64,000 nucleotides of DNA from Escherichia phage vB_EcoM_G17. The notes beneath the pieces were generated by a model. It saw only the letters and a program-made list of their open reading frames with translations. It did not search any database and was not told the origin of the DNA. The position numbers and the translations under genes are program-made. Shown here in pieces: positions 22,376 to 49,443 of this stretch (position 1 is its first letter; every line of letters starts with the position of its first letter). The DNA lies in the sequence record MK327931.1; one strand, given 5' to 3'.

Positions 22376-22490
22376 TTTTATAACTCCTATAAGAGATAAA
22401 TTTTACTATAATATTTATAGTTCCTGTGTCATTTATATGAACTGACATAGAAAATTATATCATATTAAAAATGGTTGTCCCAAAGTTAAA

Positions 22491-31812: not shown

Positions 31813-32601
31813 TTAAATGTTAGTAGTATAGTACTTGATTTCGTTTTGAATTGCAAGTTCTATTTGTTTATTGAAAAGAATTCCAAACTCTTTAATTGAT
31901 TCACAATCGAATTCAATAGAAAAAGTATACTCTGGTACACGTACATTGTCAATACCCAAATACTCTTTTATGTAAATTTTAATGAGTTTACATAGTGCAG
32001 TACTAAGACATTGAATTTCAAAATGTTTTGCACCTTTGTCAAAATACTTGAATGCATCAATATCACCGACAATAAAACTATTCTTTAATGTAGTGAATAG
32101 GTTCTCAGGAAACACGGTAATAGGTGACATTGATTTAAGAATGTATGTATCTTTGGCATTCTTAATGTACTCAATGAAGCAGTAGTTAACGTCAGGCTCG
32201 ATTGAACGATCCGCGTTATGATACCAGTGTTTAAACTCACTGTACTCAGCAAACTTATGCTGGCGTAATGCGTTACAATCTTCACACAATGCAGTCATGT
32301 TCTCTTTATCATTACCGCCCTGAAGACAGTCCAGTATGTTATGGTCTAACGTCATGCGTACAAGACGTTTCCCTTTAAGTACATAAGGTCTGAATTTATA
32401 ACGTTCTTTAGTACTGTGCTTATGTAAAGTGAATACCACATTGGATTCACCACAACAATCACATTTAAAGCCATCACGTGACATTACATGAATGAGTTTG
32501 CGTGTGTTCGGTCCAAACTCAGATTTAGTAATGTTATCCACAATTTCTGATGGTTGGTAATATTTTGAATTCCGTTGAATCAGTTCATCGATAGTGCTCA
32601 T
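31813..32601 (-). CDS. HNH endonuclease (putative homing endonuclease)
   Basis: CDCCGESNV ... TLDHNILDCLQGGNDKENMTALCEDCNALRQHKF = HNH with flanking Cys pairs. Confidence 0.75.
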   Translation of the reverse strand: MSTIDELIQRNSKYYQPSEIVDNITKSEFGPNTRKLIHVMSRDGFKCDCCGESNVVFTLHKHSTKERYKFRPYVLKGKRLVRMTLDHNILDCLQGGNDKENMTALCEDCNALRQHKFAEYSEFKHWYHNADRSIEPDVNYCFIEYIKNAKDTYILKSMSPITVFPENLFTTLKNSFIVGDIDAFKYFDKGAKHFEIQCLSTALCKLIKIYIKEYLGIDNVRVPEYTFSIEFDCESIKEFGILFNKQIELAIQNEIKYYTTNI

Positions 32602-33102: not shown

Positions 33103-33131
33103 ATTCTACGCGAATGATTAATAACTGTCAA
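33103..33131 (-). promoter_or_regulatory. sigma70-like promoter TTGACA-N17-TAGAAT
   Basis: Minus strand: TTGACAgttattaatcattcgcgTAGAAT upstream of 32829..33038. Confidence 0.5.
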
Positions 33132-33655
33132 GGACTTTTAATATTGACGGGATTTGAGGAAGGGATTTTTCTTCCCCCCACAAGGAGGGAAATTTGACGC
33201 TGATGGTATCAGAGCTATTGCATTGAAGATTACTCATAACGAGTGCGAAAGCGGGTCATCCTGTTTCTCTCTACTTCAGTTTCATATGACGGTCTACACT
33301 TTTAAACATAGTGTATCTTCATTAAGTATCTATGCAATCAAATACTTAATGTGAGTACTCAAATTTTGGACGCAACTTTCCTGTACAAAATTCGATAACT
33401 CTCCCTTAGATAATTCGTAAGGTGTTATCCTTATATGTCTATCAAGGAACCACCAGCTATCCTAACGTGGTTCTTTATACAGCCGCATTGCCGTGAGGGG
33501 TTCAAACTATGCCCACATCTAACGGGTTTCTTTTGCTGTTCGCACTGTCGGACTGCTCAACTGCCCTCTACGTTTTCGAGTGGATCAGGTACATGAATAT
33601 CATGCCAACAGAATTGTACAAGATAATTATATCACAAACTTTTACTTCATCCCAT
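33132..33655. other. ORF-free island with raised GC; candidate structured non-coding RNA (strand undetermined)
   Basis: About 530 bp without credible ORF in a very dense genome; GC-rich stretches (cgcactgtcggactgctcaactgccctc); ends at a bidirectional terminator. Confidence 0.35.
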
Positions 33656-33690
33656 AAAAAAAGGTTGGCATAAGCCAACCTTTTTTCTTT
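33656..33690. terminator. bidirectional rho-independent terminator
   Basis: aaaaaaaGGTTGGCataaGCCAACCttttttcttt. Confidence 0.75.
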
Positions 33691-34654
33691 AGAAATCTTC
33701 GTATTCGTACCCTTTTGCAAGTACTAGCTTCTTAAGCTTTTGCATAGCTTCACTGTACTTTCGATGTATTGATGAACGGGATTTAACATATTTTCCATTA
33801 TCATCAACAAAACCATTATCAGCAATCTCACGAAGCGTTTCAGGTTCATATTCACCTAGACCATGAACACGCTGGATAATCTCACGTTCTTTAGTACTCA
33901 ATTCGTTAGTCAGTTCATTGATAGCATAACGTAAAGGTGCACGAATACTATCAACATTGAGGTTAAAATCAGAAGCAGGTGAATGAATAATGTCACCTAG
34001 TGTACCATCGGTAACACCGTCTAATGGTGCATCCAGAGAAGTGTATTCGCTTTGAAATAACAAACAGTTATTAACATGCTGAATCTCAATCCCAGTACCC
34101 TCTGAGATTATTTCAGGAGTTGGGCGAACACCATGTTTACGCATATATTCCTGGCAGAATCTTTTTACTTTGATCTTATGAACACTCATATAACGTGGGA
34201 AGTGTACCATATAGTTAGCGTCAGAACTTTCGTTATAAACTGTCATGTAAATACTAGAAGAAGCATAGGTAATGAACTTCACATTCTTATTAAGATCAAA
34301 GGTTTTTAGTGCTCTCATGAACCCCTCAACACCATATGAAATCTTATCTTCAAATGGGATATAACAAGTACATTTACTTGCTACATCAATAATAAGTCCA
34401 TAATTGTAACGAACTAACAGTTCAGTGTTTTTCTTTACATTGATACCAGCTTGAATATCACGAATTAGATCTTCATTGGAAACATTTGGTGGTCGCTTAA
34501 GTGTAATATTATATTTGAAACTGCTTTGTACTTTACCTTCATTTTCATCTTTATCTTCAACGAAATCTAAGGCTTCTAGTGTGTTGACTTCTTCATTAGC
34601 AAAACATTCATCCAGAACTTCTTCGGCAATTGTATTTAAATCAAGCTTTTTCAC
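33689..34654 (-). CDS. sigma-70 family sigma factor (regions 2 and 4 recognisable)
   Basis: YGVEGFMRALKTFDLNKNVKFITYA (region 2.2-like), VHFPRYMSV (2.4-like), C-terminal LSTKEREIIQRVHGLGEYEPETLREIA...KYSEAMQKLKK (region 4.2 HTH-like). Confidence 0.7.
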   Translation of the reverse strand: MKKLDLNTIAEEVLDECFANEEVNTLEALDFVEDKDENEGKVQSSFKYNITLKRPPNVSNEDLIRDIQAGINVKKNTELLVRYNYGLIIDVASKCTCYIPFEDKISYGVEGFMRALKTFDLNKNVKFITYASSSIYMTVYNESSDANYMVHFPRYMSVHKIKVKRFCQEYMRKHGVRPTPEIISEGTGIEIQHVNNCLLFQSEYTSLDAPLDGVTDGTLGDIIHSPASDFNLNVDSIRAPLRYAINELTNELSTKEREIIQRVHGLGEYEPETLREIADNGFVDDNGKYVKSRSSIHRKYSEAMQKLKKLVLAKGYEYEDF

Positions 34655-34675
34655 TTACATCTCCTAATGACGAAA

Positions 34676-35173
34676 TCAAAATCGATATACATTAATATTA
34701 TCATCTGTGAAGCAATCATGGTTATGCACATCCATGAAAGTACTAAACACTTTATCATATAAAGTTGTATGTTCTTCATGAATAGCAGCATCTAGCATGT
34801 ATTCTCCACCACTACCCATAAAGAAAGTGTAGTCTTCATGTAGATATTCAAGTTTTTTAATAAACTTTCCTTTAGTTAAAATCATATGAATAACATAATC
34901 TTTAGAAAGAAGCACACAATGGCAACTTAACTTTCTGTCAGGTATAACTGGTACTTTATTAATTAACCAATCCAGTACTTTATCAATTTCACTTACTGAC
35001 CCACTAGCACTGAATAAACGGTCATGTACATATAAAGTTTTTTGATTAACAACTCCATATTGATATTTTGGTCTTAGTGGGAAAAAACCAAATAAGTTTC
35101 GTGGTATAGTTGACGTAACTCTAGAATCGGTAATCAATAAATTTAATCGTTTATCAATATAAACAGTTGTCAT
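34676..35173 (-). CDS. hypothetical protein (165 aa), immediately downstream of sigma gene
   Basis: ORF in array. Confidence 0.55.
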   Translation of the reverse strand: MTTVYIDKRLNLLITDSRVTSTIPRNLFGFFPLRPKYQYGVVNQKTLYVHDRLFSASGSVSEIDKVLDWLINKVPVIPDRKLSCHCVLLSKDYVIHMILTKGKFIKKLEYLHEDYTFFMGSGGEYMLDAAIHEEHTTLYDKVFSTFMDVHNHDCFTDDNINVYRF

Positions 35174-35174
35174 A

Positions 35175-35594
35175 TTAAACCTTATCTAAGAATTTATCGT
35201 ATATATAAAATTCTTTATCGGTGAATACATTAATTCTAGTATCGAATCTTTGCATCGTGTTCATATACAATGAACTTTTTAAATAAAAATACAAAGCAAC
35301 AAATTCTGATATATGCATATTCTTTTTATTGTTACATAAATTCTTTAGCATTTTGATGCTATCAAATTCTTCTTTATCAAATCTGTACTGGTAAAAATTG
35401 TATCTATTGGAACGGCACTCATAGATACGAAGTGCCATTATATCAATACATTCTTTAGATTTACAGTACTTATTCAATACGTCATAATCACCCGTACATA
35501 ATGCTACAAAGATTTTATGTGCAAGCGTAGCTTTGCCCTCAATCGTATAATAGCCAAAGAATTTAATGATTAAGTACTGAATGAATGTAATCAT
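35175..35594 (-). CDS. hypothetical protein (139 aa)
   Basis: ORF in array. Confidence 0.55.
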   Translation of the reverse strand: MITFIQYLIIKFFGYYTIEGKATLAHKIFVALCTGDYDVLNKYCKSKECIDIMALRIYECRSNRYNFYQYRFDKEEFDSIKMLKNLCNNKKNMHISEFVALYFYLKSSLYMNTMQRFDTRINVFTDKEFYIYDKFLDKV

Positions 35595-35599
35595 TTGAT

Positions 35600-35860
35600 T
35601 TAGAATTTCTCCGAAATTACTAGAGTGTCATCATAATCTTCTGCAATCTCATGAAGAACTTTTAAGTTACTTTCACCAGAAACGCTTTGTACTTCGTTCA
35701 AAAGATAGTTTAGATCAACTTTAGTTACTTTTTCTGAATCAAATACACAGAAAGTCAATTCAGCGTTTGGACAGATCTTCTTCAGATTATCAGCAACAAC
35801 TTGTTTGAAGTTGAAAGATGGGGAAGCAACCAGGTTAACTGCAACGAGAATAGATTTCAT
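35600..35860 (-). CDS. hypothetical protein (86 aa)
   Basis: ORF in array. Confidence 0.5.
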   Translation of the reverse strand: MKSILVAVNLVASPSFNFKQVVADNLKKICPNAELTFCVFDSEKVTKVDLNYLLNEVQSVSGESNLKVLHEIAEDYDDTLVISEKF

Positions 35861-35934
35861 AATGTTTTCCTTTTTAGCTGATAATTAAATTAGGAGCACA
35901 TTGTACTCCATATTATTTGTTATGTAAAATACTT

Positions 35935-36186
35935 TTAGATACCAAGTGCAGTAGATAACTCTTTACGTTTGTTATATGAATCAGATTCAATCTTACTTTT
36001 CTTGTTGAAAAGGGATTCAATATCCTTATAGATTGCTTCGATAGATTTAGTTACTACCCATTCTGATTCTTGAAGCATACCTTGGAGTCGTGCGTACTCA
36101 ACTTTAATAGTACTGCGAAGTTCTTCACAAACTTCTTCATTCTTAATTAGTGCAGCACTAAGTTCTTTGACCTTATCGATGTTCAT
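35935..36186 (-). CDS. hypothetical protein (83 aa)
   Basis: ORF in array. Confidence 0.5.
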   Translation of the reverse strand: MNIDKVKELSAALIKNEEVCEELRSTIKVEYARLQGMLQESEWVVTKSIEAIYKDIESLFNKKSKIESDSYNKRKELSTALGI

Positions 36187-36245
36187 AAGTTCCTTACTCT
36201 AATTTGTTTTTAACAAAATAATTATATATAACATACTAAATTATG

Positions 36246-36671
36246 TCAAGTATTTTTAGTACCTTCTTCTGCCATTTTTGTGATATACCAATTAAGTACT
36301 GATTTGTGTACCATAAAAAATGTGAATGCAAATATAGCAATAGCTGCTGATGTAACACTATTAGATAATGACCCAAGTTGGATGTTAGTACCTAAAATAA
36401 CAATAAATGGATACAACACAATTAATCTACTGTAAGGTTCGTCTCCAGTATCACGGAGAAATACAAGCCTTTCATGATCAGTATCCATTGTGACAATTGA
36501 ACAGAACATAAGTGCAGACATAAGAGCAATACCAATTTGTGCTACATTAGAAATTGTAAACCACAAAGGATTTAAACCATATGAAATATTATTTTCTGTA
36601 CAGTAGTAACCAAACGAATTGAATGCACAAACTAAAAATACAAAAATACAAATCTTATTATAACCTCTCAT
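36246..36671 (-). CDS. polytopic membrane protein (141 aa)
   Basis: Multiple hydrophobic segments. Confidence 0.55.
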   Translation of the reverse strand: MRGYNKICIFVFLVCAFNSFGYYCTENNISYGLNPLWFTISNVAQIGIALMSALMFCSIVTMDTDHERLVFLRDTGDEPYSRLIVLYPFIVILGTNIQLGSLSNSVTSAAIAIFAFTFFMVHKSVLNWYITKMAEEGTKNT

Positions 36672-45923: not shown

Positions 45924-46013
<90 letters not shown>

Positions 46014-46025
46014 AGAAGTAAGATA

Positions 46026-46126
<101 letters not shown>

Positions 46127-46178
46127 GCCAAGAGTCGGCATAGGTGCAGCACTACAAAGTTCTTCAAGCTGCTTGGTA

Positions 46179-46210
<32 letters not shown>

Positions 46211-46211
46211 T

Positions 46212-46268
<57 letters not shown>

Positions 46269-46270
46269 TA

Positions 46271-46398
<128 letters not shown>

Positions 46399-46417
46399 GC
46401 ATACTCGAAGTACCTCT

Positions 46418-46455
<38 letters not shown>

Positions 46456-46456
46456 A

Positions 46457-46821
<365 letters not shown>

Positions 46822-46830
46822 TAATACCCG

Positions 46831-47232
46831 CTAGTAGTTTAAGTCTGCGGCGTTGAATACACCAAGTGAAGTCTTACCACGTAGTTTAGGTGAAAGGACA
46901 TACTTTGTCAATTTCTTTTTACCGTACCAGCGATTGAATTCGTCTTCAGTGACATATGGGTTCTGGAAATCGTATTCGCGTTTCTTATGCAGTTCTTTAG
47001 CACGTTCTGCAATCTTGGTTCGTTGGTCTTCTGGAATGTCGAATGTATTGTTACGTTCACACCATTCGTGCTCTAATGCACCCTGAAGAAACTGTTCGGT
47101 TTCTTTGACTAGAGTGATTTTAGTCAAGCCTTTTTCGATGTTCATATAATCATCGACGTATCCATTCCAAATAACAATCTCTGGATTGCCGTCAATTTCT
47201 TGAAGCATTTTGATCAAGTCATTCTTTTTCAT
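46831..47232 (-). CDS. hypothetical protein (133 aa)
   Basis: Shares N-terminus with 46603..46818. Confidence 0.6.
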   Translation of the reverse strand: MKKNDLIKMLQEIDGNPEIVIWNGYVDDYMNIEKGLTKITLVKETEQFLQGALEHEWCERNNTFDIPEDQRTKIAERAKELHKKREYDFQNPYVTEDEFNRWYGKKKLTKYVLSPKLRGKTSLGVFNAADLNY

Positions 47233-47240
47233 TTAAATTC

Positions 47241-47498
<258 letters not shown>

Positions 47499-47519
47499 TT
47501 ATACCTCTCATTGTTTATG

Positions 47520-47591
<72 letters not shown>

Positions 47592-47595
47592 TAAT

Positions 47596-48203
<608 letters not shown>

Positions 48204-48254
48204 ATAAACCTCACTATACGTAACTTACACCATATACGTCTGATTGTGGAATTC

Positions 48255-48279
48255 ATTATATCAGTACTGAACTATTTAG

Positions 48280-48284
<5 letters not shown>
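48255..48284 (-). promoter_or_regulatory. sigma70 consensus promoter TTGACT-N17-TATAAT with CAGTACTG
   Basis: Minus strand: TTGACTaaatagttCAGTACTGATATAAT. Confidence 0.65.
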
Positions 48285-48693
<409 letters not shown>

Positions 48694-48702
48694 CTTTTTT
48701 TT

Positions 48703-48864
<162 letters not shown>

Positions 48865-48868
<4 letters not shown>

Positions 48869-49029
48869 AATCGTACCAGTAGTTCAATTAAGTACATTTC
48901 ATATGCTGGATCGTTGATAAGTTTATCATACAGATGTGGCTCTGAAATGAATTCCCAATGATACTTTAGCCATCTACCGATACCCGAATATCTAAAATTA
49001 ATGTCATTCATCCATTCTTCATGTGTCAT
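48865..49029 (-). CDS. MTHEEWM small protein (54 aa), tandem copy 2
   Basis: MTHEEWMNDINFRYSGIGRWLKYHWEFISEP...; ATGA overlap with neighbours; not in ORF track (<60 aa). Confidence 0.55.
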
Positions 49030-49190
49030 AATCGTACCATTATTTCAATAAAGAACCACGGATACACTTCATGATTCATAAGTTTATCGTATTCTGCTGG
49101 GTCTGATATGATTTCCCAATGATACTTTAGCCAACTACCGATACCCGAATATCTAAAATTAATGTCATTCATCCATTCTTCATGCGTCAT
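49026..49190 (-). CDS. MTHEEWM small protein (54 aa), tandem copy 3
   Basis: MTHEEWMNDINFRYSGIGSWLKYHWEIISDP...; about 70 bp nearly identical to copy 2. Confidence 0.55.
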   Translation of the reverse strand: MTHEEWMNDINFRYSGIGSWLKYHWEIISDPAEYDKLMNHEVYPWFFIEIMVRL

Positions 49191-49213
49191 GGTTTTTAAC
49201 CTTTAATTAAAAT

Positions 49214-49290
49214 TGGCCGAGGTAGAGGGACTTGAACCCCCAACCTAGAGATTAGAATTCTCTTGCACTATCCAATTGTGCTATACCCCG
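49214..49290 (-). tRNA. tRNA-Arg (anticodon UCU), CCA encoded
   Basis: Acceptor CGGGGTA/TACCTCG, D-arm GCAC-AATTGGATA-GTGC, anticodon arm AGAGA-ATTCTAA-TCTCT, T-arm GGGGG-TTCAAGT-CCCTC. Confidence 0.8.
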
Positions 49291-49294
49291 TATT

Positions 49295-49410
<116 letters not shown>

Positions 49411-49443
49411 ATGTTATGTCCCATTATATAATGAATTAATGAT

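What the first reader, a model, noticed from the sequence alone, without database searches (positions are those of the whole stretch)
33689..35173. Phage-encoded sigma-70 family factor with both region 2 and region 4
The 321-aa ORF carries recognisable region 2.2 (YGVEGFMRALKTFDLNKNVKFITYA), 2.4-like (VHFPRYMSV) and a region 4.2-like helix-turn-helix at the C-terminus. The T4 late sigma gp55, by my recollection, is much shorter and lacks region 4, so this is a different kind of sigma. The gene immediately downstream (34676..35173) could be a co-transcribed partner, but I have no evidence for that.
Basis: partly seen in the sequence, partly recalled or inferred. Interest (0 to 1): 0.7.

Follow-up and report, generated by a model that had tools for sequence, protein, structure and literature searches.

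The report
Jumbo-phage RpoD-like sigma factor gene
The ORF is a genuine sigma-70-family transcription factor of the E. coli jumbo phage Sharanji, already annotated and published as a hallmark of this phage group, and probably used early in infection to retarget the host RNA polymerase to the phage's middle genes.

Summary
The window is 100% identical to Escherichia phage Sharanji (Asteriusvirus, 350 kb). The ORF at 33689..34654 (minus strand, 321 aa) is Sharanji_gp182, deposited as 'rpoD, RNA polymerase sigma factor'. HMMs, PDB sequence matches and a fold search all confirm sigma-70 regions 1.2 to 4. The observation and the core interpretation hold, but the gene is already known. [quoted passage not shown]

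Three corrections apply:
- The neighbouring gene 34676..35173 lies upstream of the sigma gene, not downstream.
- Region 4.2 carries a clade-specific 9-residue insertion in its helix-turn-helix.
- It is not a true RpoD, because the RpoD models score far below their cut-offs and the W433/W434, Q437, T440 and E458 equivalents are lost.

The gene sits in an early operon, between a perfect sigma-70 promoter at 36249 and a terminator at 33656-33680. The Sharanji genome has three promoter classes:
- early, TTGACA/TATAAT;
- middle, G(A/G)GACAA-N15-TGnTATAAT;
- T4-like late, ATAAATA.

It also encodes a separate gp55-like late sigma, so I assign gp182 to the middle class by inference (about 0.5).

Two things were noticed in passing. 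The upstream partner is an HslV-like peptidase. An uncatalogued structured RNA of about 450 nt lies just 3' of the sigma gene.

The parts
33689..34654 (-). Sigma-70-family factor (Sharanji_gp182, 321 aa). Layout: acidic, disordered N-terminus 1-49; regions 1.2-2 at about 56-150; region 3 at about 154-226; region 4 at about 234-313, with a 9-residue insertion (278-286) in the 4.2 helix-turn-helix.
34661..34665 (-). Ribosome-binding site AGGAG, 6 nt before the GTG start of the sigma gene.
34676..35173 (-). Upstream, co-oriented gene Sharanji_gp183 (165 aa), an HslV/proteasome-beta-like Ntn hydrolase. The family keeps Met-Thr-Thr at the N-terminus, D16/S17, K45 and G120-S121-G122 invariant. Its linkage to the sigma gene is conserved.
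35175..36186 (-). Three small ORFs of unknown function (gp184, gp185, gp186) lying between the promoter and gp183. They probably belong to the same early transcript.
36221..36249 (-). Perfect sigma-70 consensus promoter TTGACA-N17-TATAAT, the nearest strong promoter upstream of the sigma gene. I infer that it starts the early operon.
35900..35928 (-). Weaker sigma-70-like site, TTTACA-N17-TACAAT (10 of 12 positions), in front of gp185.
33656..33680 (-). Intrinsic terminator directly after the sigma stop codon: GGTTGGC-TTAT-GCCAACC followed by a T run (-22.1 kcal/mol, z = -4.9).
33626..33653 (-). Middle-class-like promoter GGGATGA-N15-TATAAT (with the TGn extended -10). It follows the terminator directly and drives the RNA element.
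33142..33620 (-). Structured non-coding RNA, copy A of four paralogues in the genome. It is unannotated and matches no Rfam family. In RaK2 the same element also lies immediately 3' of the sigma gene.
33103..33131 (-). Sigma-70-like promoter TTGACA-N17-TAGAAT that starts the next early unit (gp181 onwards).
22454..22481 (-). Middle-class promoter GGGACAA-N15-TATAAT in front of gp150.
49395..49422 (-). Middle-class promoter GGGACAT-N15-TATAAT, about 10 nt upstream of the tRNA cluster.

Best explanation
gp182 is a functional alternative sigma factor of the sigma-70 family.

1. Host sigma-70 holoenzyme makes it early in infection, from an operon that starts at a consensus promoter (36249) and ends at a terminator just past the gene.
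2. The protein then binds E. coli core RNA polymerase through its conserved region 2 and region 4.
3. It redirects the polymerase to the phage's 'middle' promoters, tG(A/G)GACAA-N15-(TGn)TATAAT. These precede the DNA replication, recombination and nucleotide-metabolism genes, the tRNA cluster, four copies of a structured RNA, and the gene for the gp55-like late sigma.
4. The gp55-like sigma in turn reads the T4-like ATAAATA late promoters.

The result is a three-step cascade: host sigma-70, then gp182, then the gp55-like sigma. In this model the altered, insertion-bearing region 4.2 helix-turn-helix reads the clade-specific -35-like box.

Shown here: family membership, gene context, the three promoter classes and the second sigma. 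Inferred: binding to core polymerase and the assignment to the middle class.
For: Family membership: Pfam r2, r3 and r4, TIGR02937, PHROG 351, PDB sigma chains and the fold search all agree. Columns invariant across the family match sigma-70 N383, D403, G411, F427, Y430, A431 and P453.

Early expression:
- The window holds 11 perfect TTGACA-N16-18-TATAAT sites, all on the coding strand, against 0.25 expected.
- The genome holds 31, all on the minus strand.
- One sits at 36249 upstream of the gene, and a terminator follows the stop codon.
- The CBB paper describes the same placement.

Middle class:
- G[AG]GACAA-N14-16-TA[TC]AAT occurs 15 times, all on the minus strand, against 0.3 expected.
- It lies in front of gyrB, the helicase, recombinase and polB blocks, thyA, the tRNAs, the RNA copies and the gp55-like gene.

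Late class: ATAAATA occurs 31 times in upstream gaps against 1.8 expected, in front of the capsid, sheath and baseplate genes.

A second sigma of the gp55 type is present. No fourth motif was found. No MotA, AsiA or gp33 homologue was found.

The -35-like box varies together with the region 4.2 recognition helix:
- Sharanji, helix SRSSIHRKY; Munch, helix SRTSLHRCY. The box is GGGACAA/GRGACAA in Sharanji and in the related phage 7t3.
- RaK2, helix VRGTLHYKF: box TGAACAA.
- CBB and Yersinia phage, helix SKATLSRRY: box TGAAAC.

The literature proposes the same general role without experiments.
Against: - No experiment exists, and none was found in the library.
- The middle promoters carry a near-invariant canonical extended -10, TGnTATAAT. 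By established knowledge, host sigma-70 reads this element through H455 and E458.
- In gp182 those positions are Y155 and V158. W433/W434 are replaced by S/S, Q437 by M and T440 by Y.
- The box/helix covariation rests on three or four clades. For RaK2 it rests on a handful of promoters, and for the 7t3/Munch group on one. The 7t3 sigma itself was not read; Munch stands in for it.
- Homologue searches for MotA and AsiA used single sequences and are insensitive.
Confidence: 0.5

Rival explanations
1. gp182 is a working sigma factor, but the GRGACAA/TGnTATAAT promoters are read by host sigma-70 through the extended -10, possibly helped by an unidentified phage activator in the manner of T4 MotA/AsiA. 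In this view gp182 serves another promoter set. It might take over the TTGACA/TATAAT early-type promoters once host sigma-70 is disabled, or it might read a sparse motif that was not detected.
For: TGn directly precedes the -10 hexamer in 17 of 19 middle promoters. The sigma-70 residues known to read TG and the -12 position are not conserved in gp182. The middle promoter layout, an upstream box plus an extended -10, resembles that of T4 middle promoters (my own knowledge). In CBB and XbC2 an HTH regulator gene lies next to the sigma gene.
Against: No MotA or AsiA homologue was found. No other enriched motif remains for gp182 to read. A conserved, clade-specific region 4 implies a clade-specific -35-like target, and the only such element found varies together with the recognition helix. 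Sharanji has no annotated HTH regulator beside the sigma gene.
Confidence: 0.3
2. gp182 acts mainly as a competitor or decoy. It would occupy host core polymerase, or titrate a host factor, to shut off host transcription, with little promoter-specific initiation of its own.
For: The DNA-melting and -10 recognition residues are diverged: there is no W dyad, and Q437, T440 and R441 are changed. The N-terminus is acidic and disordered.
Against: The A(-11)-pocket residues are kept or conservatively replaced: F419, F427, Y430 and K426 are retained, E420 becomes D and R423 becomes K. Regions 3 and 4 are complete and conserved across genera at 30-45% identity. Such conservation is hard to explain without DNA recognition.
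Confidence: 0.07
3. gp182 works together with the gp55-like protein on late promoters, for example by supplying a region 4 that gp55 lacks, rather than on middle promoters.
For: gp55-type sigmas lack region 4 (T4 gp55 is 185 aa). No gp33 homologue was detected in Sharanji, although Iyer et al. report gp33 orthologues in group 2 phages.
Against: Two full region-2-bearing sigmas cannot occupy one core polymerase (established knowledge). The late motif has no -35-like partner element. The gp182 gene is early, whereas the gp55-like gene lies behind a middle promoter.
Confidence: 0.05

Closest known systems
RpoD-like sigma factors of RaK2-like ('group 2.2') jumbo phages: 121Q gp167, PBECO4, phAPEC6, RaK2 ORF244, GAP32, CBB_513
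   Same: This is the same protein family. Identity is 99-100% in 121Q, PBECO4 and phAPEC6, 43-46% in RaK2 and 30-35% in CBB, GAP32 and XbC2. All share the N-terminal motif, the region 4.2 insertion and an early-region location.
   Different: Nothing essential differs; gp182 is a member. None of these proteins has been tested biochemically, as far as the searched library shows.
Cellular group 1/2 sigma factors (E. coli RpoD and RpoS, mycobacterial SigA and SigB)
   Same: The domain order, regions 1.2-2-3-4, is the same. These are the best sequence and structure matches. The A(-11)-pocket residues and the core-binding region 2.2 are partly conserved.
   Different: Identity is only about 22-26%. 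gp182 has no region 1.1 or non-conserved region. W433/W434 become SS, Q437 becomes M, T440 becomes Y, H455 becomes Y and E458 becomes V. The 4.2 helix-turn-helix carries a 9-residue insertion. In the recognition helix E585 becomes S, R586 becomes S, R588 becomes H and Q589 becomes R. RpoD and RpoS equivalog scores are far below their cut-offs.
T4 gp55 late sigma, and the T4 early/middle/late programme with MotA and AsiA
   Same: The phage is a distant T4 relative. It has a gp55-like sigma next to SbcCD-like genes, as with T4 genes 46, 47 and 55, and it has ATAAATA late promoters. Its middle promoters resemble T4 middle promoters in layout: an upstream box plus an extended -10.
   Different: gp182 is not gp55-like, since it matches PHROG 351 rather than 234 or 12791. 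No MotA or AsiA homologue was detected. The middle step would then be carried out by a replacement sigma rather than by appropriation of host sigma-70.
Bacillus phage SPO1 sigma cascade (gp28, then gp33/34)
   Same: The proposed logic is the same. Host sigma transcribes an early phage sigma gene, and its product switches the polymerase to the next temporal class (my own knowledge; SPO1 is mentioned).
   Different: The SPO1 sigmas are short and divergent and are not close relatives of gp182. The cascade proposed here has not been tested.

Membership tests
Sigma-70 family (Pfam r2/r3/r4; TIGR02937) | Region 2 (core binding, -10 recognition and melting) | tested here: met
   Pfam Sigma70_r2 gives E 7e-5 and 23.0 bits, just under the cut-off of 24. 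Close homologues carry PF04542. PDB RpoD aligns across region 2 at E 5e-17. The equivalents of N383, D403, G411, F427, Y430 and A431 are invariant.
Sigma-70 family (Pfam r2/r3/r4; TIGR02937) | Region 3 | tested here: met
   Pfam Sigma70_r3 scores 37.8 bits against a cut-off of 25.3.
Sigma-70 family (Pfam r2/r3/r4; TIGR02937) | Region 4 with the 4.2 helix-turn-helix | tested here: inconclusive
   Pfam Sigma70_r4 scores 23.8 against 24.1 and covers only profile positions 4-28 of 50. None of the 12 close homologues carries PF04545. The alignment to sigma-70 continues through 4.2 only if a 9-residue insertion is allowed. The AF2 model shows helix, beta-hairpin, helix at pLDDT 84-89. A region 4 fold is therefore present, but it is non-canonical.
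Sigma-70 family (Pfam r2/r3/r4; TIGR02937) | Whole-protein superfamily model above its curated cut-off | tested here: met
   TIGR02937 scores 44.7 against 42.9.
Sigma-70 family (Pfam r2/r3/r4; TIGR02937) | Binds core RNA polymerase and confers promoter-specific initiation | not testable with these tools
   This needs a pull-down and in vitro transcription.
Primary sigma RpoD (group 1), as the record names it | Score above the RpoD equivalog cut-offs, and presence of region 1.1 and the non-conserved region | tested here: not met
   TIGR02393 scores 88 against 354 and NF004208 scores 64 against 555. The protein is 321 aa with a disordered acidic N-terminus.
Primary sigma RpoD (group 1), as the record names it | Conserved -10 and extended -10 determinants (W433, W434, Q437, T440, H455, E458) | tested here: not met
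   The equivalent residues are S133, S134, M137, Y140, Y155 and V158.
T4 gp55-type late sigma | Match to the gp55 family profiles; short protein without region 4 | tested here: not met
   gp182 matches PHROG 351 only. The gp55-like protein of this phage is gp368 (phrog_12791 and phrog_234).
HslV / proteasome-beta Ntn hydrolases (for the upstream gene gp183) | N-terminal threonine nucleophile, plus the Asp, Lys and Gly-Ser-Gly catalytic set | tested here: met
   M1-T2-T3, D16, S17, K45 and G120-S121-G122 are invariant in 16 homologues that go down to 44% identity.
HslV / proteasome-beta Ntn hydrolases (for the upstream gene gp183) | Ntn alpha-beta-beta-alpha sandwich fold | tested here: met
   The AF2 model has pLDDT 82.9. 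The Foldseek top hits are HslV chains 1m4y, 6kui and 4hnz at E 7e-6 to 4e-5, followed by 20S beta subunits and connectase, with TM about 0.5.
HslV / proteasome-beta Ntn hydrolases (for the upstream gene gp183) | Sequence-profile membership (Pfam Proteasome) | tested here: not met
   There is no Pfam or NCBIfam hit. The only profile link is a weak match to PHROG 1040 'peptidase HslV family', E 1.3e-6.
HslV / proteasome-beta Ntn hydrolases (for the upstream gene gp183) | Peptidase activity and partnership with an HslU-type ATPase | not testable with these tools
   No HslU-like gene was looked for. This needs biochemistry.

The most novel reading that the evidence does not exclude
gp182 would define a distinct, jumbo-phage-specific branch of sigma factors. 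Its region 4.2 helix-turn-helix carries a beta-hairpin insertion and reads the clade-specific middle-promoter box (GRGACAA, TGAACAA or TGAAAC). It would form a conserved early take-over module with an HslV-like peptidase gene upstream and an uncatalogued structured RNA of about 450 nt immediately downstream. That RNA, present at 3-5 copies per genome, would be one of the main products of gp182-dependent transcription.
Probability: 0.3. Interest if true: 0.6.

Novelty: already known. Interest (0 to 1): 0.27.

Why it matters
As a finding it adds little. [quoted passage not shown]

Its function, however, is entirely untested. RaK2-like jumbo phages lack their own RNA polymerase, so this protein is the most likely switch by which they take over the host enzyme.

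The analysis turns that idea into testable predictions:
- a defined set of 15-19 candidate target promoters in Sharanji;
- a predicted sigma cascade ending in the gp55-like factor;
- specific recognition-helix residues that vary together with the promoter box across genera.

The by-products may be worth more than the finding itself. They are an HslV-like peptidase linked to the sigma gene and a covariation-supported RNA family that is absent from Rfam.

Tried and rejected
- Searching the window for the CBB/GAP32 middle motif TGAAACG-N14-20-TATA gave 0 matches. Sharanji uses a different box, which only appeared after the whole genome was assembled and anchored on the -10.
- T4 gp55 against the Sharanji proteins by phmmer and tblastn gave only E = 0.03. 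The PHROG profiles settled the identification.
- T4 AsiA, MotA, gp33 and DsbA against Sharanji gave nothing significant. The weak AsiA hit to gp456 (E 0.008) has no support from Pfam or PHROGs.
- Rfam on the window at gathering thresholds found only tRNAs. Rfam on five copies of the RNA element at E up to 5 found no family. Group I intron, tmRNA, RNase P, 6S, GOLLD and ROOL were considered; none was reported by those scans, and their hallmark sequences, as I recall them, are not apparent.
- The four RNA-seq ncRNAs of PA5oct were considered as relatives of the RNA element. Their sizes are heterogeneous and no sequence link could be made.
- A k-mer search for a fourth promoter motif in the 133 unexplained upstream gaps found only NTAAATA late variants, ribosome-binding sites and terminators.
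- The reading 'not really a sigma, just an HTH protein' was rejected, because all three regions match in the correct order and the fold search agrees.
- The built-in terminator scan missed the sigma terminator. Folding the sequence confirmed it.
Full report
**Identity of the sequence.** A 3-kb stretch around the finding is 100% identical to Escherichia phage Sharanji (OR545507.1, Asteriusvirus, 350,079 bp). It is 98-99.7% identical to 121Q, PBECO4, phAPEC6 and others. I assembled the whole Sharanji record from fetched pieces. The window overlaps it without a single mismatch and corresponds to record positions 47778-111777.

The ORF 33689..34654 (minus strand, 321 aa) is Sharanji_gp182. It is deposited as 'rpoD, RNA polymerase sigma factor'.

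**Check of the observation.** The ORF, its length and the quoted peptide strings are all present. It starts at GTG 34654, with AGGAG six bases upstream. Every homologue begins MKKLDLN, so the start codon is right.

The profile and structure evidence is as follows:
- Pfam Sigma70_r3 lies above its cut-off. r2 (23.0 against 24) and r4 (23.8 against 24.1) fall just below theirs, and all three occur in the correct order.
- The sigma-70 superfamily model TIGR02937 passes its cut-off, 44.7 against 42.9.
- PHROG 351 'RNA polymerase sigma factor' matches at 2.6e-60.
- Solved RpoD, SigA, SigB and RpoS chains match with E down to 5e-17 over residues 31-283.
- An AF2 model (pLDDT 70.5; residues 1-49 and the 3.2 linker disordered) finds sigma-S and SigA chains of initiation complexes first, at E 1.8e-11.

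One factual slip concerns direction. Both genes are on the minus strand, so the gene at 34676..35173 is upstream of the sigma gene, not downstream.

**Anatomy compared with E. coli sigma-70.** I aligned 13 family members with sigma-70 residues 355-613. The columns invariant across the family correspond to N383, D403, G411, F427, Y430, A431 and P453. Most residues that, by established knowledge (from memory), form the pocket for the flipped-out A(-11) are kept or conservatively replaced:
- F419, K426, F427 and Y430 are kept.
- E420 becomes D and R423 becomes K.

Other residues are lost:
- The W433/W434 dyad becomes S133/S134.
- Q437 becomes M and T440 becomes Y.
- H455 and E458, the readers of the extended -10 TG, become Y155 and V158.

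In region 4.2 a 9-residue insertion (A278-N286) separates the two helices of the helix-turn-helix. G281, D284, G287 and K288 are near-invariant in the family. AF2 models the insertion as a short beta-hairpin at pLDDT 84-89.

The recognition helix reads SRSSIHRKY where sigma-70 has TRERIRQIE. R584 is therefore kept, while E585, R586, R588 and Q589 are changed.

This explains why the Pfam r4 match covers only the first half of the profile, and why none of the close homologues carries a precomputed r4 hit. A search with region 4 alone finds only 70 records, all of them RaK2-like jumbo phages. Their annotators call the protein RpoD, RpoS, FliA or 'group 2'.

The RpoD and RpoS equivalog models score 64-88 bits against cut-offs of 354-555. 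The label 'rpoD' is therefore over-specific. This is an alternative sigma with the domain set of groups 2 and 3.

**Transcription unit.** The window holds 11 perfect TTGACA-N16-18-TATAAT sites, all on the coding (minus) strand, against 0.25 expected. The whole genome holds 31, all on the minus strand and mostly between 17 and 105 kb.

One of them (36249..36221) precedes gp186, gp185, gp184, gp183 and the sigma gene. A strong hairpin with a T run follows the stop codon at 33680..33656 (-22.1 kcal/mol, z = -4.9).

The sigma gene is thus the last gene of a unit driven by a consensus host promoter, which makes it an early gene. Buttimer et al. drew the same conclusion for CBB_513.

**Promoter classes and a second sigma.** K-mer enrichment in 244 upstream gaps of the genome gave three signals:
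- ATAAATA, 31 occurrences against 1.8 expected;
- GTATAAT;
- TTGACA.

Anchoring on the -10 hexamer revealed a further class, tG(A/G)GACAA-N15-(TGn)TA(T/C)AAT. The strict pattern occurs 15 times, all on the minus strand, against 0.3 expected in Markov simulations.

These sites precede the following:
- gyrB;
- the helicase, UvsX-like and polB blocks;
- the thyA and NTP-pyrophosphohydrolase blocks;
- the tRNA cluster (window 49395-49422);
- gp150 (window 22454-22481).

They also precede Sharanji_gp368, which PHROGs identify as a gp55-type late sigma (phrog_12791 2.4e-154, phrog_234 8e-18). gp368 lies next to SbcCD-like genes, as T4 gene 55 lies near genes 46 and 47.

ATAAATA sites precede the capsid, sheath and baseplate genes. 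No further motif remains in the other 133 gaps.

This matches the three classes reported for CBB and GAP32: RpoD-like, 'divergent RpoD-like' TGAAACG/TATA, and T4-late-like.

There are thus three promoter classes and three sigmas: host sigma-70, gp182 and the gp55-like protein. No MotA, AsiA or gp33 homologue was detectable. The parsimonious reading is a cascade of host sigma-70, then gp182, then gp368.

**Test of the link between sigma and box.** The -35-like box is genus-specific. In register with the -10 it reads as follows:

| Phage | Box | Basis |
|---|---|---|
| Sharanji | GRGACAA | 15-19 sites |
| Salmonella phage 7t3 | GGGACAA | one site |
| RaK2 | TGAACAA | in front of rnh, ssb, two ORFs and the RNA element |
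| CBB | GAAAC(C/G)n | published motif plus one site read here |
| Yersinia phage fHe-Yen9-03 | GAAACAG | one site |

The recognition helix varies in step:
- Sharanji has SRSSIHRKY.
- Munch, which I take to be of the 7t3 group, has SRTSLHRCY. Its region 4 is otherwise only 25% identical to that of Sharanji. The 7t3 sigma itself was not read.
- RaK2 has VRGTLHYKF.
- CBB and XbC2 have SKATLSRRY.

This is consistent with direct readout by region 4.2. It rests on few clades and few sites and is not proof.

Against it stands the near-invariant canonical TGnTATAAT of the middle class. That is what host sigma-70 reads, whereas gp182 lacks the corresponding residues.

I therefore give the general role (binds host core polymerase, redirects transcription) about 0.85. 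I give the specific assignment to the middle class about 0.5. The main rival, at about 0.3, is host sigma-70 acting through the extended -10, with or without an unknown activator.

**The neighbouring gene.** gp183 (34676..35173, 165 aa) ends 21 nt before the sigma start codon, with only the ribosome-binding site between them.
- It has no Pfam or NCBIfam hit. It belongs to phrog_24804 and weakly matches phrog_1040 'peptidase HslV family'.
- Sixteen homologues going down to 44% identity keep M1-T2-T3, D16, S17, K45 and G120-S121-G122 invariant.
- The AF2 model (pLDDT 82.9) finds HslV first, then 20S beta subunits and connectase. gp183 is therefore an HslV/proteasome-beta-like Ntn hydrolase with an apparently intact catalytic set.
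- The same family lies directly upstream of the sigma gene in RaK2. In a metagenomic relative one small ORF separates the two genes.
- It is not upstream of the sigma gene in CBB, XbC2 or Munch.

A functional link remains speculation, for example proteolysis of a host factor during take-over.

**Seen in passing: a structured RNA.** The 650-nt unannotated gap 3' of the sigma gene has three paralogues in Sharanji, all in unannotated gaps. Each is preceded by a middle-class promoter. The copy after the sigma gene has GGGATGA-N15-TATAAT at 33653..33626, directly after the terminator.

In RaK2 the element also follows the sigma gene directly (nhmmer E 2.5e-34). blastn finds it in 61 records, at 2-5 copies each, all of them RaK2-like jumbo phages. 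A conserved block occurs in IMG/VR mostly in contigs of about 350 kb and otherwise in shorter contigs that I take to be fragments of such genomes.

An eight-sequence alignment gives 72 pairs in 13 helices, of which 38 show compensatory changes. In the controls:
- 95.5% of cells are paired, against 36-43% when the 3' partners are slid by 1-3 columns.
- The covariation score is 0.52, against 0.12 or less in the slid versions.
- None of 500 shuffles reaches the observed values.

Rfam has no matching family, and the papers searched do not mention the element. This looks like a genuine RNA family of about 450 nt that is not catalogued in Rfam. Its function is unknown.

[quoted passage not shown] The CBB paper lists regions 2, 3 and 4 for its homologue, and a 2026 review repeats the idea. 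I found no experimental work on this sigma.

The finding is correct but already known, so its interest is low. What this analysis adds is:
- the corrected gene order;
- the non-canonical region 4;
- a concrete and testable cascade model with named target promoters;
- two linked features that deserve their own follow-up, namely the HslV-like gene and the structured RNA.

Noticed in passing
window 33142..33620 (-). Paralogues at Sharanji record 326475-327088, 191704-192283 and 270412-271063 (L007, L004, L006).: A multi-copy structured RNA of about 450 nt lies immediately 3' of the sigma gene, and does so in RaK2 as well. Each copy has its own middle-class promoter. The consensus structure has 13 helices, and 38 of its 72 pairs show compensatory changes. 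95.5% of cells are paired, against about 40% in slid controls. No Rfam family matches. The element is found in 61 RaK2-like jumbo phage records at 2-5 copies each, mostly unannotated or covered by tiny 'hypothetical proteins'. Its function is unknown.
   Followed up: partly
window 34676..35173 (-): gp183 is annotated as hypothetical but is an HslV/proteasome-beta-like Ntn hydrolase. Its family keeps an invariant Met-Thr-Thr N-terminus and a Gly-Ser-Gly motif. Its position just upstream of the sigma gene is conserved in Asteriusvirus, in RaK2 and in a metagenomic relative. The phage also encodes ClpA, ClpP and a Clp adaptor elsewhere (record gp377, gp496, gp293).
   Followed up: partly
L004 36052..36891 (-) = Sharanji record 196052..196891: gp368, annotated as hypothetical, is a gp55-type late sigma factor of 279 aa, with an N-terminal extension relative to T4 gp55. 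It lies next to SbcCD-like genes and directly behind the middle promoter GGGACAA-N15-TGCTATAAT at record 196949-196976.
   Followed up: partly
window 49395..49422 (-), with tRNAs at 45935-49384 (-): A middle-class promoter (GGGACAT-N15-TGATATAAT) lies about 10 nt upstream of the first tRNA of the cluster. The phage tRNAs may therefore be expressed with the middle genes.
   Followed up: no
-10 hexamers (-) starting at window 11889, 13303, 14585 and 25199 (record 59666, 61080, 62362, 72976): Four near-identical terminator-promoter cassettes. The hairpin GGGTTGAC-TTCG-GTCAGCCC and its T run are followed at once by TATAAT, so the -35 hexamer TTGACT lies inside the terminator stem.
   Followed up: no
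window 16351-56619 (-), 11 sites (16351, 26969, 30930, 31279, 36221, 37583, 39430, 46300, 54184, 54730, 56591): Eleven perfect TTGACA-N16-18-TATAAT promoters lie on the coding strand, against 0.25 expected. Many share the spacer ...AGTACTG immediately before TATAAT, which suggests a duplicated promoter module in the early region.
   Followed up: partly
window 31813..32601 (-): A free-standing HNH homing-endonuclease gene (gp179, phrog_35175; weak Pfam HNH hit) lies about 1 kb 3' of the sigma/RNA module and is annotated as hypothetical.
   Followed up: no
window 1..~8000 (+); L002 40817..50000: A run of similar-sized (about 1.1-1.2 kb) plus-strand genes (gp106-gp113 onwards) has alternating, repeated upstream sequences. 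GC skew changes sign near window position 8000. This may be a tandem paralogue array, but paralogy was not checked.
   Followed up: no
L002, about 26-35 kb of the Sharanji record (outside the window): About ten early promoters share the variant -35 hexamer TTGCAA, within GTACTTGCA, paired with a perfect TATAAT. They form a sub-family of the early class.
   Followed up: no
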